Positions 694 to 51,897 are shown, counted from the stretch's first letter. The stretch is DNA of 64,000 nucleotides from an uncultured Chloroflexia bacterium (GCA_963735495.1 CAVTLG010000003.1:32080-96079); one strand, 5' to 3'. Notes: a model not told the origin generated them from the letters alone. Numbers and translations: made by a program.

Positions 694-819
694 GGGTCTC
701 CGTCCTTGAGGGGGAGCCAGGTAAGGGCGTGTCCTGGCGACCCGCCCCAGGGCGCACGCGAGGTGACGCCCCTACCCCCGTTCCGTTTCCCAACGTTTCC
801 CTTGGGGGGATGTAGACCC
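694..819. repeat. MITE/REP-like palindromic element, copy A (core inverted relative to copies B, D, E)
   Basis: Terminal inverted repeats are GGGTCTCCGTCC ... GGATGTAGACCC. The core is GTAAGGGCGTGTCC...GCGCACGC...GGTGACGCCCCTACC. The same architecture recurs at 16.2, 19.7, 30.4, 38.8 and 51.5 kb. Confidence 0.75.
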
Positions 820-5365: not shown

Positions 5366-5439
5366 CGGAACCGACGGGATTCGAACCCGCGATCTTCTGC
5401 GTGACAGGCAGACATGTTAGGCCACTACACCACGGCTCC
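5366..5439 (-). tRNA. tRNA-Asp (anticodon GTC), copy 1; CCA not encoded
   Basis: The reverse complement GGAGCCGTGGTGTAGTGGCCTAACATGTCTGCCTGTCACGCAGAAGATCGCGGGTTCGAATCCCGTCGGTTCCG folds as a cloverleaf. The acceptor stem is GGAGCCG/CGGTTCC, the anticodon loop is CTGTCAC, and the T-loop is GGTTCGAATCC. Confidence 0.9.
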
Positions 5440-13231: not shown

Positions 13232-16174
13232 TTGAAGGACATATCTATACCGACAAGCACTGGATCTGACAAACCTATCGCCATCTATTATTCCTGCGCG
13301 CATACAAAGGAAGACCAGGCGCTCCTGCAACAATTGAACACGAGTCTGGCGGTGTCGCGACGTAAGCAAGAGATTACCACCTGGCATGAAGGCCAGATCA
13401 GCAGCGGAGGCTCTATTGAGCAGGAGCGCCTGGTACAGTGGGAGCAGGCACAGATCATCTTACTCTTGCTCAGCCCAACCTACATTGCGGACGACCATTG
13501 CTACGCACAAATGCAGTTGGCACTACAGAGGCAGCAAACGGCTGGCACACGTGTCGTTCCTATACTGCTGCGTCCTACACCTGGCTGGGAGGCCATGCCT
13601 ATCGCGGACCTGCAAGCATTACCGCAGGGAAATCGTCCGATTACAAGTTGGAACCAGCGTGAAGAAGCTCTGGCAAACGTCGCTGAGGGGATACACAATG
13701 TCGCCTTACAGTTACGCGAGCAGCAACACCCACTCCTATTGAGCAATGGTGTCATGCGCGTAGAGCCACCTCCCCACCAGCATAGCACGATACTGCCACG
13801 GGAAACGCTGGTCAACGCGCTCTACGCGCAGTTAACCCACTCCGATGTCTCCTCTGTAGTGCTCTCAGGCTTAAAAGGTGTGGGCAAATCAACGCTGGCC
13901 GCCCAGGTCTATGACCTTGCAGAGCAGCGCCGCAGTGCAGGAGAAGGTCCATTTACCGGCGCGGCGCTCTGGCTCAAGATCGAAGCCACAGGCACGCTGA
14001 CAGACCTGCTACGCGTCATCGCTGCCGCATTGCGCCAGGACTACGACAGCATTAACCATCTCCCGCCGCCAGCCAAAGATTTTTCTACTCCTCAGCTCAA
14101 ACCAGATCTAGAAATTTTTTATCTGCTGAAAAACTCCCCGACACCACGGCTGATTGTACTCGATCAGTTCGAGACCTGGCTGGATACCCAGACGGAAACA
14201 CAGCCTGCCAGACAGACAGAGATTAACACGTGGCTCGACCTGCTTAACGACTACCCCTGTGCCAGCCGTATCCTGTTAACCGCTCATACCTATCCTCAGG
14301 GCACAGGCGTTGCTCGTCCACTGTACCGACAGGCATTTCCTCTTGCAGGCTTCCAACCATCCGAAGGCGTGGCATTACTGCGTCTATGGGGCATACCCGA
14401 TGCTGATCGAGAGCTGTTACGCGCAGTTCAACACTGCGAAGGACACGCGCTGGCCCTCGTCCTTTTAGATCAACTACGACGACAGCTCCAGGTGAGCCTG
14501 GCAACCTTACTCGATGATCCCGCCTACAAACAATTATGGCTCAAGGATGTGCAACACAATATATTGGACTACATCTATGAACACCTGTTAAGGGATGAGC
14601 AGCAGCGCCAGTTGCTGCTGGCGTTCTGCATCTACCGCGAGGCCGTGCCATGGTCAGCCGCCTACGCCATTACCCATGCCCAGTCACAGGTCACAGAAGC
14701 ACAAACGCTGCGAGCGTTGGGCGTCCTGCAAGACTACCAGCTCTTCCAGAGGCAAGATAGCGGCGAAAAACGCTATATATTACATCCACTGGTGGCGGAT
14801 TATGCTCACGGTCGCTTTGCTACCGAGGATAACCATAACGGCTCTCCGTCCATTGACGCCCCTACCCAGTCACCAGACGTTTCCTCCACAAGGATGGAGA
14901 TCCCCCATCGCCAGACGCTCGACAAACGCCTGGCTCACGTTGCGGCGGCGCGCTACTACCAGCAGCACTCTCCACAATCTGGTCAACGCCATCAACGCAT
15001 CGATGATGTACACACGCTCATCGAGGCGCTCTGGCATCTTTGTCAGGCAGAGCAATACCAGGAAGCCTACACGCTCATGCGCCAGGAGCATCTTTTCGCT
15101 GATCTCCATCGTTGGGGCAGCAACACTATTTTGCTCAGCTTCTATCACATGCTATTGCCGCTTGAGCGCTGGAATACACAAATGGAGCAAGCTGCGCATA
15201 TCTCCTACGAGATCGGCGAAGTCTACAACGCACTGGGACAATTGCATGCCGCGCGCACTTCTTTTGCCAACGCTCTGGCCTTGTACCGTAACTGTGATCT
15301 CTGGGAGGGAGAAATCAAGGCTCTGAACAGCCTGATGCAGTATCCTCAGACGGATCAATGGCATGGAGAAAGTCAGATGCCGCCTCCCGCGCCTCCCAAC
15401 GGAGGATATGCTACGCGAATGATGCCGAAGAGGTCAAGTGGTTTTGCACCAGGGCCAATTTTCCTGGAGGACGGAGCAATAGAGCAAGCACAGATGTACT
15501 GCTTACAGGCACAACGCCTCGCTGAAAAGCACCCAGGCCACGTTGAGCAGGGCGTCACATTCAATAACCTGGGACAATTGCAGAAAAGGCTGGCACAGAC
15601 AGCACACACAGTCAACGCGAGAAACGCATGTTACCGGCAGGCCCTTACCGACTATAAGCAAGCTCTGGCTATCTACAAAGCATTGGACGATGTGTCAGAG
15701 ATTGCGCGCACGCTGAACAACATGGGTGAAGTCTATGATCAGCTCGATCAATCGAAGCAAGCACTCAACAATTACCGGCGAGCGCTTGGGCATTTTCGCG
15801 AGACTGGCGAGAGACGCGGCGAGGGCATTGTTTGTAATAATCTCGCGTATTATTATAAGCAGCGCCAGGAGAGACAAAACAGCGTTGAATATTATATCCG
15901 TGCGTTACACATCTTCCGTGAAATCGGAGATCGCCGGCACGAAGGGATTGTGCTCAAAAACCTTGGACATCTCTATGTATCAGTGCAGCGCAACGAGGTC
16001 GCGCTGGCCTGTTTTTTGTTAGCCAGAGATAATTTTACGCTCTTAGACGATCCTGAGCGTGGAGCGATAGACGTAGAATTACAAACGCGTCTAGCCGCCG
16101 AGCGGGTATTTGAAAGCATGGTAGCAGAGATATACCCACGTGCAGAGCAGATCATAGAGGGGGAATTCGGGTAA
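13232..16174 (+). CDS. TIR - STAND (NB-ARC-like P-loop NTPase) - TPR protein
   Basis: The TIR-like N-terminus is IAIYYSCAHTKED...IILLLLSPTYIADDHCYAQMQLAL...VVPILLRP. Walker A is GLKGVGKSTLA. C-terminal TPR-like units are FNNLGQL, LNNMGEVY, CNNLAYYY and LKNLGHLY. It starts at TTG 13232. The stop lies inside MITE copy B. Confidence 0.85.
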   Translation: MKDISIPTSTGSDKPIAIYYSCAHTKEDQALLQQLNTSLAVSRRKQEITTWHEGQISSGGSIEQERLVQWEQAQIILLLLSPTYIADDHCYAQMQLALQRQQTAGTRVVPILLRPTPGWEAMPIADLQALPQGNRPITSWNQREEALANVAEGIHNVALQLREQQHPLLLSNGVMRVEPPPHQHSTILPRETLVNALYAQLTHSDVSSVVLSGLKGVGKSTLAAQVYDLAEQRRSAGEGPFTGAALWLKIEATGTLTDLLRVIAAALRQDYDSINHLPPPAKDFSTPQLKPDLEIFYLLKNSPTPRLIVLDQFETWLDTQTETQPARQTEINTWLDLLNDYPCASRILLTAHTYPQGTGVARPLYRQAFPLAGFQPSEGVALLRLWGIPDADRELLRAVQHCEGHALALVLLDQLRRQLQVSLATLLDDPAYKQLWLKDVQHNILDYIYEHLLRDEQQRQLLLAFCIYREAVPWSAAYAITHAQSQVTEAQTLRALGVLQDYQLFQRQDSGEKRYILHPLVADYAHGRFATEDNHNGSPSIDAPTQSPDVSSTRMEIPHRQTLDKRLAHVAAARYYQQHSPQSGQRHQRIDDVHTLIEALWHLCQAEQYQEAYTLMRQEHLFADLHRWGSNTILLSFYHMLLPLERWNTQMEQAAHISYEIGEVYNALGQLHAARTSFANALALYRNCDLWEGEIKALNSLMQYPQTDQWHGESQMPPPAPPNGGYATRMMPKRSSGFAPGPIFLEDGAIEQAQMYCLQAQRLAEKHPGHVEQGVTFNNLGQLQKRLAQTAHTVNARNACYRQALTDYKQALAIYKALDDVSEIARTLNNMGEVYDQLDQSKQALNNYRRALGHFRETGERRGEGIVCNNLAYYYKQRQERQNSVEYYIRALHIFREIGDRRHEGIVLKNLGHLYVSVQRNEVALACFLLARDNFTLLDDPERGAIDVELQTRLAAERVFESMVAEIYPRAEQIIEGEFG

Positions 16175-16262
16175 GGGCGTCACCTCGCGTGCGCCCAGGG
16201 ACGGTCGACAGGACATGCCCCTACCCGAATTCCCAACGTTTCCCTCAGAAGGATGAAGATCC
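16150..16262. repeat. MITE/REP-like element, copy B (left end degenerate)
   Basis: The core is GGGTAAGGGCGTCACCTCGCGTGCGCCCAGGG...GGACATGCCCCTACCC and the right end is AAGGATGAAGATCC. It contains the palindrome GGGAATTCGGGTA.../...TACCCGAATTCCC. Confidence 0.7.
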
Positions 16263-19655: not shown

Positions 19656-19812
19656 GGTTCCCATTTTCCGGTAACAGTGTTTTATTGCTGGGAAAACGTT
19701 GACAAATGGGGTAGGGGCGTGTCCTTGCGACCGCCCTGGGGGCCACGAGGCGAGCCACCGGGCGCACGCAAGGTGACGCCCCTACCCCATTTTCCCACAA
19801 GGATGGAGAACC
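19656..19812. repeat. MITE/REP-like element, copy C (with an internal 20-nt insertion)
   Basis: The core is GGGGTAGGGGCGTGTCC...GCGCACGCAAGGTGACGCCCCTACCCC. The right end is AAGGATGGAGAACC and the left end GGTTCCCATTTTCC is degenerate. Confidence 0.7.
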
Positions 19813-30416: not shown

Positions 30417-30511
30417 CGGGTAGGGGCGTCACCTCGCGTGCGCCCTGGCGGCGGTTGCAGAGACACGCTCCTACCCTATTTCTCGACATTTCCCCGCGAG
30501 GATGGAGACCC
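30417..30511. repeat. MITE/REP-like element, copy D (left end truncated)
   Basis: The core is GGGTAGGGGCGTCACCTCGCGTGCGCCCTGG...GAGACACGCTCCTACCC and the right end is GAGGATGGAGACCCC. Confidence 0.7.
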
Positions 30512-38732: not shown

Positions 38733-38855
38733 GGCTCTCCATCCTTCCGGGTGAAAACGTTGGGAAACAGGGTAGGGGCGTCACCTTGCGTGCGCCCTGG
38801 GGGCCGGTCGCAAGGACACGCCCCTACCCTGTTTCACCCTAATGGATGGAGAGCC
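38733..38855. repeat. MITE/REP-like element, copy E (best-preserved full-length copy)
   Basis: Perfect 12-bp terminal inverted repeats are GGCTCTCCATCC / GGATGGAGAGCC. The core is GGGTAGGGGCGTCACCTTGCGTGCGCCCTGGGGGCCGGTCGCAAGGACACGCCCCTACCC. Confidence 0.8.
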
Positions 38856-39450
38856 TATCGGGCTGTTTGATATATCGGGTGAAGATATGCAAATGCTGAA
38901 CACTAGTGTTGCCTTGAAACGCTATATACGCCATGCTCATGGCATTATTTTTCTGTTCGATCCAGCCACTTTTCCCAATGTGCAATACCAGATTAACCAT
39001 GAAAGTAAGTCAGGCTCCTCTACTACTATCCCACCTGACAATAGTGTGTTAGCCTTAAGAAGTCTCTTTGAGGCAGAGCGATTGGTGCGTACGACAGAAA
39101 AGGTAAAAACACCCATCGCATTTACGCTCTCAAAGGTAGATACGATACAATCGCTGCTTGATCCTGCTTCTCCATTACGCAGGCCTGGCTTATACCACAG
39201 CGACATAGAACAAGAACAATTGCAATCCTTGAGTACCGAAGCGCTGAGTCTCTTCAATGCCTGGAGTAATCCAAATTTTGGCAATCTGGTAAACAGCGAA
39301 TTTGCTACCTATGCGTATTTTGGTGTATCGGCTCTGGGAAGACAAGCTGACGAGAATAATCAACTCGCTGCAATTAGTCCCCTGCACGTTGAGGACCCAT
39401 TTCTCTGGCTTCTCTTACAACTCAAGGTACTGAAAAAAGACAAACGTTGA
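38842..39450 (+). pseudogene. N-terminally truncated TRAFAC-type GTPase-like fragment (P-loop missing)
   Basis: G3-like DISGED, G4-like SKVD and G5-like VSALG motifs are present, but no Walker A. The first codons (MDGEP) are MITE sequence. Confidence 0.45.
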
Positions 39451-39629: not shown

Positions 39630-39634
39630 AAGAG

Positions 39635-39708
39635 CGGAACCGACGGGATTCGAACCCGCGATCTTCTGCGTGACAGGCAGACATGTTAGGCCACTACACC
39701 ACGGCTCC
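39635..39708 (-). tRNA. tRNA-Asp (GTC), copy 2, identical to copy 1
   Basis: The 74 nt are identical to 5366..5439. Confidence 0.9.
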
Positions 39709-47979: not shown

Positions 47980-48053
47980 CGGAACCGACGGGATTCGAAC
48001 CCGCGATCTTCTGCGTGACAGGCAGACATGTTAGGCCACTACACCACGGCTCC
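47980..48053 (-). tRNA. tRNA-Asp (GTC), copy 3, identical to copies 1 and 2
   Basis: The 74 nt are identical to 5366..5439. Confidence 0.9.
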
Positions 48054-51435: not shown

Positions 51436-51897
51436 GGCTCTCCGTCCATAGGGGAAACGAGGTAGGGGCGAACTTAAGAATGGATCAGTTTAGAGTATGA
51501 TGTGTCAGATGCAAAAAGGGAAATACCGGGAAGGTTGCCACCTTTCCAGGCTCCGCGCCCACGAGGACAACGGGGTAGGGGCGTCACCTTCCTCCTTTCC
51601 GACACATGAGCCGAAGGCTAGCGGCGAGAGCCGCGTTTCCTCCGCTCCGTCAGATGAGCGAAGCTAGAAGCGACAGCTTCGTTTCTGACGGTCTTAGAGG
51701 TTGTGTCGGTCTAAGAGGCAGCGTGCGCCCTGGGCCTCACGAGAGCCACCCCTTGATCTCTGAATACCCACCGGGGGCGGTCGCCAGGACACGCCCCTAC
51801 CCGTTTGCCGATGACTCTCAGCAGTTCCTAAGTTAGCGCCTATAGGTGACGCCCCTACCCAATTTCCCGACGCAATTCTGCCGGGATAGGTGATCTC
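51436..51897. repeat. Composite locus of nested MITE/REP-like elements
   Basis: The outer copy runs from GGCTCTCCGTCC...GGTAGGGGCG (51436-51470) to GGTGACGCCCCTACCC (51845-51860). Its core is split by about 370 nt of inserted sequence that contains a second copy spanning about 51570-51810. That second copy is itself split at 51589-51720 by a 132-nt palindrome-ended insert. Confidence 0.7.

What the first reader, a model, noticed from the sequence alone, without database searches (positions are those of the whole stretch)
38733..38855. Family of about 125-bp MITE/REP-like nested-palindrome elements (at least 7 copies in the window)
The best copy (38733-38855) has perfect 12-bp termini GGCTCTCCATCC/GGATGGAGAGCC. 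These enclose sub-terminal GGGAAAC/GTTTC(A/C)CC repeats and a GC-rich core, GGTAGGGGCGTCACC-GCGTGCGCCCTGG-spacer-GGACACGCCCCTACC. Related copies lie at the following positions.
- 694-819, with the core in the opposite orientation
- about 16150-16262
- 19656-19812, with an internal insertion
- 30417-30511, truncated on the left
- 51436-51897, a nested cluster

All copies are intergenic or at gene ends. They encode no protein, are too long and complex to be simple terminators, and differ by indels, which is consistent with a mobile non-autonomous element or a REP-type element. I cannot name the family or its cognate transposase, whether a RAYT/TnpA(REP) or a DDE enzyme.
Basis: seen in the sequence. 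Interest (0 to 1): 0.6.

Follow-up and report, generated by a model that had tools for sequence, protein, structure and literature searches.

The report
ISL3-type MITE carrying a REP doublet
The ~125-bp nested palindrome is a real small mobile element of an uncultured Ktedonobacteraceae genome: its ends come from an ISL3 insertion sequence and its core is a REP doublet, so two known kinds of bacterial repeat are joined in one unit.

Summary
The element at 38733-38855 is one of about 90-140 related copies in the 7.1-Mb genome, a Ktedonobacteraceae MAG.

It has two layers.
- **Outer layer.** About 24 nt at each end are the terminal inverted repeats of an ISL3-family insertion sequence.
  - 21 of 47 intact copies carry an 8-bp target duplication with at most one mismatch. 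Shuffled pairings give about 0.4.
  - Three of 12 tested insertions are clean empty sites in a congeneric genome.
  - An intact 1414-bp ISL3 element in a related genus has the same first 23 nt.
  - The host genome holds only a 1414-bp copy broken by one stop codon.
- **Core.** The core is a head-to-head doublet of GTAG-tagged REP hairpins, like a REPIN or BIME.
  - The genome has 291 exact REP heads and 148 doublets, and 56 of the doublets have no ISL3 ends.
  - In a relative, the same REPs flank a single-copy REP-associated tyrosine transposase (RAYT) gene.
  - No RAYT was found in the host assembly, which is about 86% complete.

The window copy has no target duplication. It sits exactly where a GTPase gene is truncated.

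Verdict: a new variant of known kinds, of moderate interest.

The parts
38733..38756 (+). Left terminal inverted repeat of the best copy, GGCTCTCCATCCTTCCGGGTGAAA. It is of the IRL type (CCATCC).
   Evidence: It matches the left end of the ISL3 element in L084 (GGGTCTCCATCCTTCCGGGGGAA) and of the resident broken IS at G000 C9:1218099 (GGCTCTCTGTCCTTCCGGGTGAAAG)..
38757..38769 (+). Sub-terminal stretch ACGTTGGGAAACA. It holds the ~11-nt duplication that marks the long arm and the variable, covarying junction nucleotides.
   Evidence: Alignment of 50 full-length copies. Pair counts at alignment columns 35-37 / 96-98.
38770..38797 (+). REP type Y, GGGTAGGGGCGTCACCTTGCGTGCGCCC: a GTAG tag followed by an imperfect hairpin.
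   Evidence: Exact match to the Y consensus. The genome has 180 Y singlets. The same sequence flanks the RAYT gene in L096.
38798..38801 (.). Short linker between the two REPs.
   Evidence: Linker length classes of about 2, 23 and 43 nt.
38802..38829 (-). REP type Z in inverted orientation. On the minus strand it reads GGGTAGGGGCGTGTCCTTGCGACCGGCC.
   Evidence: One mismatch to the Z consensus. Head-to-head Y/Z doublets make up 134 of 148 doublets.
38832..38855 (-). Right terminal inverted repeat (short arm). On the minus strand it reads GGCTCTCCATCCATTAGGGTGAAA.
   Evidence: Short-arm consensus GGCTCTCCGTCCATGCGGGGGAAA compared with the IS right end GGCTCTTCGTCCTTCCGGGGGAAA.
694..819 (-). Full-length copy (126 bp) in inverted orientation, lying between two ORFs.
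   Evidence: Termini at 694-717 and 796-819, REP Z+ at 719-746, REP Y- at 750-777. The flanking 8-mers match at 4 of 8.
14840..14903 (+). A 64-bp internally deleted copy, consisting of both termini and a REP fragment. It is in frame (64 + 8 = 72 nt) inside the TIR-STAND-TPR ORF 13232-16174.
16150..16262 (-). Copy with a degenerate left terminus. The 980-aa ORF ends (16174) inside it.
   Evidence: REP Y+ at 16169, REP Z- at 16199, terminus at 16239-16262.
19656..19812 (+). Copy with the 23-nt linker class and a ~20-nt insertion in the left terminus.
   Evidence: REP Z+ at 19709, REP Y- at 19760, terminus at 19789-19812.
30417..30511 (-). Hybrid copy. It has a REP doublet and one ISL3-type terminus (30488-30511). 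The other side is a different REP-cluster flank.
   Evidence: The flank resembles the conserved flank of long-linker doublets.
51436..51897 (+). Nested cluster. The outer copy has an ISL3-type terminus at 51436. It is interrupted by a long-linker REP cluster, and that cluster's REP Y is in turn interrupted by a further ~130-bp repeat.
38857..39450 (+). Truncated GTPase gene that abuts the best copy. Similarity to the full-length paralogue starts at the first base after the element.
   Evidence: tblastn. The paralogue at C2:1239915-1241090 has 193 more N-terminal residues, including the P-loop GSSAAGKT.

Best explanation
The element is a chimeric non-autonomous transposon.

**Outer layer (ISL3-family MITE).**
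- The two ~24-nt ends are the left and right terminal inverted repeats of an ISL3-family insertion sequence.
- A DDE transposase of that family, supplied in trans, would bind them and insert the unit at AT-rich sites with an 8-bp staggered cut.
- Shown: end identity, 8-bp duplications, empty sites.
- Inferred: the catalysis itself.

**Core (REP doublet).**
- Between the ends there is almost nothing but a head-to-head doublet of REP sequences, like a REPIN or BIME. Each REP is a GTAG tag plus an imperfect hairpin, and they come in types Y, Z and W.
- REP doublets are normally moved as single-stranded hairpins by a RAYT, a Y1 HUH transposase.
- Shown: the same REPs occur without ISL3 ends, and in a relative they flank a RAYT gene.
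- Inferred: RAYT activity.

**State in this genome.**
- No RAYT is detectable, and the only cognate ISL3 copy is broken by one stop codon.
- A five-copy subfamily that includes the window copy differs by only 1-6 nt. It shares its end variant with that broken IS, which points to recent mobilisation.
- The whole unit can fold into a long hairpin or into a 'clover' of two REP hairpins.
- Effects on neighbouring genes are side effects: supplying stop and start codons, in-frame insertions, and deletion breakpoints.
For: **Ends.**
- The MITE consensus GGGTCTCCATCCTTCCGGGGGAA is identical over 23 nt to the left end of a 1414-bp IS in L084 (G017).
- That IS has a perfect 8-bp duplication (ATATTTTT) and a 419-aa ORF matching PF01610 DDE_Tnp_ISL3 at E = 4.8e-64.
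- Left-end and right-end signatures are shared between the IS ends and the long and short arms of the MITE: position 3 is G or C, position 9 is A or G.

**Target duplications.**
- 15 of 47 copies have a perfect 8-bp duplication and 6 more have one mismatch.
- Shuffled pairings give 0.31 and 0.12.
- The duplicated sites are AT-rich.

**Empty sites.**
- 3 of 12 tested insertions have contiguous orthologous sites with a single copy of the target 8-mer in the congener G001.

**Resident IS.**
- C9:1218099-1219512 is 1414 bp. Its transposase is 64% identical to the L084 one and has one in-frame TAA.
- A young subfamily of 5 copies differs by 1-6 nt in 123. Four of the five have perfect duplications.

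**Minimal copy.**
- A 47-bp copy made only of the two ends has a perfect duplication.

**REP layer.**
- There are 389 REP singlets and 148 head-to-head doublets, with linker classes of about 2, 23 and 43 nt.
- 56 doublets have no ISL3 end, and the mid-linker ones have unrelated flanks.
- The genome has 291 exact REP heads against 0 for the control.

**RAYT.**
- L096 (G044) encodes a 160-170-aa protein with an HUH motif and a catalytic-type Tyr.
- It matches PF01797 at 38 bits (cut-off 23). Its best NCBIfam match is NF047646, REP-associated tyrosine transposase, at E = 1.5e-21.
- It is the only PF01797 hit in that genome, and REP Y and Z copies flank it on both sides.
- RAYT homologues in other Ktedonobacteria are flanked by their own GTAGGGGC-type repeats.

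**Literature.**
- An ISL3-mobilised MITE with GGCTCTTCG ends and 8-nt direct repeats is described in PMC11448079.
- REPINs and their compensatory changes are described in PMC3116915.
- GTAG REPs, including in the phylum Chloroflexi, are described in PMC3733652.
Against: - No intact cognate ISL3 transposase was found in any of the six genomes that carry the chimera. Current mobility is therefore unproven.
- No RAYT was found in the host genome, and only one of six REP-bearing genomes has one. The host assembly is only about 86% complete.
- The RAYT candidate scores 76.8 bits, just under the NCBIfam cut-off of 80. It has no sequence match in the PDB.
- The best copy itself has no target duplication.
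- The REP core is more conserved than the ends: 0.92-0.94 against 0.85-0.87 identity to consensus. Simple neutral decay of a MITE does not predict this.
Confidence: 0.78

Rival explanations
1. The element is a pure REP/BIME element spread only by a RAYT acting on single-stranded DNA. On this reading the outer 'termini' are just an extended stem of the REPIN and have nothing to do with a DDE transposase.
For: - The core has every formal REP feature.
- RAYT genes flanked by these REPs exist in a relative.
- The long hairpin and the compensatory changes are typical of REPINs (PMC3116915).
Against: - 8-bp target duplications flank the outer termini. The established IS200/IS605-type mechanism leaves none.
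- The termini equal the ends of an ISL3 IS, down to differences specific to the left and right ends.
- A 47-bp copy without any REP still has a perfect duplication.
- Empty sites keep exactly one copy of the 8-mer.
Confidence: 0.06
2. The REP-like core is only the internal part of the ISL3-derived MITE. On this reading the 'naked' doublets are MITE remnants that have lost their ends, so no RAYT layer exists in this lineage.
For: - No RAYT is found in the host genome or its congener.
- 92 of 148 doublets still have at least one ISL3-type end.
- Many copies have only one recognisable end.
Against: - Doublets without ends mostly carry the 23-nt or 43-nt linkers, which are rare inside MITEs. The counts are 40 of 52 outside against 6 of 42 inside.
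- Mid-linker doublets have flanks that are unrelated right up to the REP.
- In G044 the REPs flank a single-copy RAYT.
- In G041 and G043 most sampled doublets are Y-Y and lack ends.
- Other Ktedonobacteria pair RAYT homologues with their own GTAG repeats.
Confidence: 0.1
3. The repeat is a host-functional structured RNA or DNA site that is kept by selection and is not mobile. Candidates are a terminator, an mRNA stabiliser or a protein-binding site.
For: - The fold is very stable, with z = -10.95.
- Copies are mostly intergenic.
- The REP core is more conserved than the ends.
- There is a weak sub-threshold Rfam match to STnc540, at 21 bits against a gathering score of 38.
Against: - There are target duplications and empty sites.
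- No Rfam family reaches its threshold.
- No T-run follows the hairpin.
- Copies occur in both orientations and inside ORFs.
- A host function could still exist as a secondary use, as is proposed for REPs in general.
Confidence: 0.04

Closest known systems
ISL3-family MITEs, for example the 187-nt Microcystis aeruginosa MITE with GGCTCTTCG ends (PMC11448079)
   Same: - The ends start with GGCTCT / GGGTCT.
- Direct repeats of 8 bp flank the element.
- The ends match those of ISL3 transposase genes.
- The element folds as a stem-loop, is non-coding and is present in many copies.
   Different: - The interior is not a remnant of the IS. It is a REP doublet that also has an independent life in the genome.
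- The host is in Chloroflexota.
- No intact partner transposase is present in the genomes that carry it.
REPIN/RAYT systems and BIMEs of Proteobacteria (P. fluorescens REPINs, PMC3116915; E. coli BIMEs; GTAG REP super-family, PMC3733652)
   Same: - Each REP is a GTAG tag plus an imperfect 20-30-nt hairpin.
- REPs form inverted doublets that fold into long hairpins.
- Two or three REP types (Y, Z, W) combine with discrete linker classes.
- There are hundreds of mostly extragenic copies.
- Stem changes are compensatory.
- In a relative, a single-copy RAYT is flanked by the REPs.
- REPs serve as insertion targets for another IS.
   Different: - About 60% of doublets are enclosed in DDE-type inverted repeats with target duplications.
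- The host genome shows no RAYT, yet it has the largest REP population of the six genomes compared.
- The lineage is Ktedonobacteria, for which the searched library holds no report.
REP-containing inverted repeats around tyrosine transposase genes ('double inverted repeats' in P. putida and P. fluorescens; TIRtrons; PMC3733652)
   Same: They are composite palindromes in which REP sequences are embedded in longer inverted repeats, and they occur in many copies.
   Different: Those repeats are associated with tyrosine transposases. Here the outer repeats belong to a DDE (ISL3) element and generate 8-bp duplications.
Rickettsia palindromic elements (RPEs) and intragenic REPs (as cited in PMC3733652)
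   Same: Some copies are inserted in frame inside protein-coding genes. The two cases here are the window copy at 14840-14903 and G000 C10:319837-319957.
   Different: This is a minority behaviour, seen in 2 of 47 copies, and the elements have no sequence relationship.

Membership tests
MITE derived from an ISL3-family insertion sequence | Terminal inverted repeats that match the ends of an ISL3-family IS | tested here: met
   The first 23 nt are identical to the left end of the 1414-bp IS in L084. The short arm matches its right end at 21 of 24. Left/right-specific positions 3 and 9 are shared. The resident broken IS at C9:1218099-1219512 has related ends.
MITE derived from an ISL3-family insertion sequence | Target-site duplication of the family's length (8 bp) | tested here: met
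   15 of 47 copies have a perfect duplication and 6 more have one mismatch, against 0.31 and 0.12 in shuffled pairings. The IS in L084 has a perfect 8-bp duplication. The window copy itself has none.
MITE derived from an ISL3-family insertion sequence | Partner element encodes a DDE_Tnp_ISL3 transposase | tested here: met
   PF01610 at E = 4.8e-64, plus a weak Zn_ribbon_ISL3 match, for the L084 ORF. The own-genome copy has one in-frame TAA. No partner was found in G001, G041, G043, G044 or G045.
MITE derived from an ISL3-family insertion sequence | Small, non-coding, multi-copy, with presence/absence polymorphism | tested here: met
   Copies are 117-123 bp. There are about 50 full-length copies and 89 end-REP junctions in G000. 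Three empty sites were found in the congener G001.
MITE derived from an ISL3-family insertion sequence | Mobilisation in trans by the transposase | not testable with these tools
   This needs a transposition assay.
REP / REPIN (GTAG super-family) | A GTAG tag at one end of a 20-40-nt imperfect palindrome, in high copy number | tested here: met
   The REP reads GG-GTAG-GGGCG..CGCCC(C). G000 has 389 singlets with up to 4 mismatches and 291 exact 21-nt heads, against 0 for the control.
REP / REPIN (GTAG super-family) | Inverted doublets that form a hairpin, with preferred spacings | tested here: met
   There are 148 head-to-head doublets, with linker classes of about 2, 23 and 43 nt. The fold has z = -10.95. 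Compensatory pairs are seen at the junction columns.
REP / REPIN (GTAG super-family) | A RAYT gene flanked by the same REPs in the same genome | tested here: not met
   The own genome has only IS200/IS605-type TnpA genes, and they are not flanked by REPs. RAYT protein searches give no hit. The feature is met in relative G044 (L096). The host assembly is about 86% complete, so absence is not proven.
REP / REPIN (GTAG super-family) | The associated protein is a RAYT (Y1 HUH enzyme of the REP-associated clade) | tested here: inconclusive
   PF01797 scores 38 bits against a cut-off of 23. The best NCBIfam match is NF047646, REP-associated tyrosine transposase, at 76.8 bits, which is below its cut-off of 80. 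The HUH motif (HIH) and the motif RNYMEH are visible in the sequence. There is no sequence match in the PDB.
REP / REPIN (GTAG super-family) | Insertion of naked doublets without target duplication | not tested
   The flanks of mid-linker doublets are unrelated, but no orthologous empty sites were examined for them.

The most novel reading that the evidence does not exclude
The REP doublet may have changed vehicle. In a lineage with no detectable RAYT, the REPIN population would be maintained and expanded by riding inside an ISL3-type MITE, that is, by a DDE transposase instead of its own HUH enzyme.

Evidence consistent with this:
- The RAYT-less host genome has 291 exact REP heads. Five related genomes have 35-73, and the only RAYT-bearing one has 72.
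- 62% of the host's doublets sit within ISL3-type ends.
- The same chimera is present in all six REP-bearing genomes.
Probability: 0.3. Interest if true: 0.65.

Novelty: new variant of a known kind. Interest (0 to 1): 0.45.

Why it matters
- REPINs are discussed as long-lived, vertically inherited partners of a single-copy RAYT, expected to decay once the RAYT is lost. A REP doublet packaged between DDE-type ends would be a second way to persist and spread, and it would link the two main classes of small bacterial repeats.
- The finding extends the REP/RAYT/BIME picture to Ktedonobacteria (Chloroflexota). The shared features are Y/Z-type REPs, discrete linkers and an IS that targets the REP hairpin.
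- For annotation, the family explains several things in these genomes: contig breaks in short-read MAGs, ORFs whose starts or stops lie in repeats, two in-frame insertions, and at least one gene truncation.

Tried and rejected
- **CRISPR.** A 9-hit, 71-bp periodic array in L036 is a tandem amplification of the right half of the element. It has 8.1 copies at 97% identity and no unique spacers.
- **Autonomous copy found by pairing ends 200-6000 bp apart.**
  - C8:243339-245023 is a MITE with an IS4/IS50-like IS nested in its REP.
  - C10:112580-114256 is two MITEs flanking an ordinary acyltransferase gene.
- **Other ISL3 transposases in the genome.** There are 24 PF01610 hits, and none has these ends except the C9 copy.
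- **RAYT in the own genome.** PF01797 hits are an IS200/IS605 TnpA and a pseudogene, neither flanked by REPs. tblastn with three RAYT-like proteins gives nothing.
- **Genes recurrently flanked by REPs in G000.** The 28 intervals hold only ordinary genes.
- **Strand bias of doublets against GC skew.** There is none; Fisher p = 1.0 and 0.40. An apparent 83:26 bias came from double labelling.
- **Age of MITE-borne versus naked doublets.** Both average about 1 mismatch per 56 nt, so no difference was found.
- **Rfam.** Nothing reaches threshold.
- **PDB sequence search of the RAYT.** No hit.
- **Literature.** The searched library returned nothing on REPs or MITEs in Ktedonobacteria.

Full report
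**1. Observation**

- It has perfect 12-nt termini, nested inverted repeats of 25 nt (88%) and 34 nt (85%), and a GC-rich core.
- As single-stranded DNA it folds into one long hairpin at -50 kcal/mol. Shuffles average -20.8, giving z = -10.95.
- The terminus 12-mer occurs 7 times in the window against 0.48 expected. The core 16-mer occurs 12 times against 0.35 expected.

All listed copies exist.
- An eighth copy, 64 bp long, lies at 14840-14903.
- The copy at 694-819 is inverted as a whole.
- The 'insertion' in the core at 19656-19812 is the regular 23-nt linker class. The left terminus of that copy also carries a ~20-nt insertion.
- The copy at 30417-30511 is a hybrid with another REP-cluster flank.

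**2. Host and census**

- The window is C3:32080-96079 of a 7.1-Mb, 15-contig assembly with about 52% G+C.
- An exact 27-mer of the core was found only in MAGs labelled uncultured Chloroflexia or Ktedonobacteraceae. Short-read contigs of one of these MAGs often end in the repeat.
- blastn finds 276 related loci in the genome, about 50 of them full length.

**3. Outer layer: an ISL3-derived MITE**

*Target duplications and empty sites.*
- Among 47 copies with both termini, 15 have perfect 8-bp direct repeats directly outside the termini, and 6 more have one mismatch. Shuffled pairings give 0.31 and 0.12.
- The duplicated 8-mers are AT-rich.
- I joined the flanks of 12 such insertions and searched the congener G001. 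Three sites are contiguous there at 82-90% identity.
- All three contain exactly one copy of the 8-mer and no element.

*The partner IS.*
- A related genus holds a 1414-bp element at L084:2822-4235. It has a perfect ATATTTTT duplication and a 419-aa ORF matching PF01610 DDE_Tnp_ISL3 at E = 4.8e-64.
- Its left end, GGGTCTCCATCCTTCCGGGGGAA, is identical to the MITE consensus over 23 nt.
- The MITE's long arm carries CCATCC and G at position 3, like the IS left end. Its short arm carries CCGTCC and C at position 3, like the IS right end.

*The host's own copy.*
- The host genome has one 1414-bp copy at C9:1218099-1219512. Its ends are related (GGCTCTCTGTCCTTCCGGGTGAAAG), and its transposase is 64% identical but interrupted by one TAA.
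- A subfamily of five copies, including the window copy, differs by only 1-6 nt of 123. It shares the GGCTCTC...CCGGGTGAAA end variant with that IS, and four of the five have perfect duplications.
- A 47-bp copy made only of the two ends also has a perfect duplication.
- ISL3-mobilised MITEs with GGCTCTTCG ends and 8-nt repeats are already described (PMC11448079).

**4. Core: a REP doublet**

*Anatomy.*
- 128 blastn loci contain the core without the termini.
- Each half is GG-GTAG-GGGCG...CGCCC(C), that is, a GTAG tag plus an imperfect hairpin. Three types occur:

| Type | Sequence |
|---|---|
| Y | GGGTAGGGGCGTCACCTyGCGTGCGCCC |
| Z | GGGTAGGGGCGTGTCCTkGCGACCGCCC |
| W | a rarer third type |

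*Counts.*
- The genome has 389 singlets and 148 head-to-head doublets, with linkers of about 2, 23 or 43 nt.
- 92 doublets have at least one ISL3-type end and 56 have none.
- The doublets without ends mostly carry the longer linkers. The mid-linker ones have flanks that are unrelated right up to the REP.
- This is the architecture of REPINs and BIMEs (PMC3116915, PMC3733652).
- The five 'same-base' mismatches of the long hairpin arise because each arm is itself a hairpin. This is the 'clover' alternative fold discussed for REPINs.

*The RAYT link.*
- The own genome has no RAYT. PF01797 finds only an IS200/IS605 TnpA and a pseudogene, neither flanked by REPs. RAYT protein searches find nothing.
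- In relative G044 the single PF01797 hit is a 160-170-aa HUH/Tyr protein.
  - Its best NCBIfam match is REP-associated tyrosine transposase, at 76.8 bits. This is just under the cut-off of 80.
  - A Y/Y doublet lies upstream of it, and Z and Y REPs lie downstream.
- RAYT homologues occur in 18 of 41 relatives.
- In several relatives they are flanked by that genome's own GTAGGGGC-type hairpins.

**5. How the two layers relate**

- The MITE is essentially two 24-nt ISL3 ends around one REP doublet, plus an 11-nt duplication in the long arm.
- Relative to that marked arm, the core occurs in both orientations: YZ 35, ZY 21, YW 5, WY 2. I take this to be inversion between the inverted arms, or repeated capture. 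This is inference.
- The 3-4 nt between the end and the REP vary and covary, for example UA 23 / CG 20 at one pair. These changes largely follow subfamilies, so they are not many independent events.
- The REP core is more conserved than the ends: 0.92-0.94 against 0.85-0.87. This remains unexplained. Selection on REPs, homogenisation among about 400 REP copies, or later replacement are all possible.
- Exact-pattern counts across six genomes, with controls at 0:

| Genome | REP heads | End-REP junctions |
|---|---|---|
| G000 | 291 | 89 |
| G001 | 41 | 11 |
| G041 | 73 | 14 |
| G043 | 35 | 4 |
| G044 | 72 | 12 |
| G045 | 58 | 5 |

- The chimera is therefore shared by all six genomes and has expanded in the host genome.
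- None of the other five genomes encodes the cognate ISL3 transposase.

**6. The window copy and its gene context**

- The best copy has no duplication; its flanks are AAGAAAAA and TATCGGGC.
- The ORF 38842-39450 takes its first five codons from the element. Similarity to a 392-residue open frame encoding its paralogue begins at 38857, the first base after the element.
- The paralogue's 193 N-terminal residues, including the P-loop, are missing from the window.
- I infer a deletion associated with the element, for example recombination between two copies. This is not shown.
- Two of 47 intact copies lie in frame inside long ORFs.
  - One is the 64-bp window copy, which is 72 nt with its duplication. 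It sits in the linker of a 980-aa TIR-STAND-TPR protein.
  - The other is C10:319837-319957.

**7. Comparison and verdict**

- The element meets the tested defining features of an ISL3-derived MITE.
- Its core meets the sequence-level features of GTAG REPs and REPINs. The feature 'RAYT in the same genome' is not met here, although it is met in a relative.
- No Rfam family reaches threshold.
- The held literature reports GTAG REPs in the phylum Chloroflexi (PMC3733652). It holds nothing on Ktedonobacteria REPs or on REP doublets packaged in DDE-type ends.
- I rate it a new variant of known kinds, with interest 0.45.
- The most novel reading still open is that the REP population now spreads by the DDE route in a RAYT-less lineage. 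I put this at about 0.3.

Noticed in passing
G000 C8:243410-244966; C10:126097-126256; 15 further places: A 1557-bp IS4/IS50-like IS and its ~160-bp MITE derivative both target the REP hairpin.
- The IS has ends CTGTCTTTTACCCAC, and its transposase has Tnp_DNA_bind and Tn5 dimerisation domains.
- In 16 of 17 cases they are inserted at one exact position in the apex of the REP Y hairpin, duplicating ACCTyGCG.
- This is a REP-targeting IS, as known for enterobacterial BIMEs.
   Followed up: partly
window 14840-14903, and G000 C10:319837-319957: Two MITE copies are inserted in frame, each with a length plus 8-bp duplication divisible by 3 (72 and 129 nt). The window one adds about 24 residues between the NTPase and the TPR array of a TIR-STAND-TPR protein encoded by ORF 13232-16174.
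   Followed up: partly
window 38842-39450: A GTPase gene lacks its N-terminal ~190 residues, including the P-loop. The breakpoint is exactly at the MITE end, and the MITE supplies the ATG. A full-length paralogue lies at G000 C2:1239915-1241090.
   Followed up: yes
L036:1576-2148 (CAVQVR010000010.1): A tandem array of 8.1 copies of a 71-bp unit, made of the right half of the element (REP plus short arm), lies about 6 kb from the RAYT gene of that genome.
   Followed up: partly
window 51589-51720; also G000 C10:~115700-115800 and C2:~934170-934270: A further ~130-bp repeat, ending ...GTGTCGGTCTAAGAGGCA, is inserted inside REP Y at the same place in several loci. This looks like another REP-targeting small element.
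   Followed up: no
window 5366-5439, 39634-39708, 47980-48053 (all on the minus strand): Three identical tRNA-Asp(GTC) genes lie within 43 kb.
   Followed up: no
L112 (G014), L122 (G035), L115 (G022), L120 (G010): RAYT homologues in other Ktedonobacteria are flanked by their own GTAGGGGC/GTAGGGAC-type hairpin repeats, for example GGGTAGGGGCAATCCCTTGCGGTTGCCC in L112. Similar sequences also occur in G000, for example near C11:410444.
   Followed up: partly
G000 C2:1294967-1324462: This is a ~30-kb stretch in which almost every gene is bracketed by REP clusters.
   Followed up: no
L140, L141 (G001 C1:1614118-1614714, C3:326220-326804): Two ~195-aa HUH/Tyr proteins are only 27% identical to the G044 RAYT. 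They are not flanked by the Y or Z REPs, and G000 has no counterpart.
   Followed up: partly
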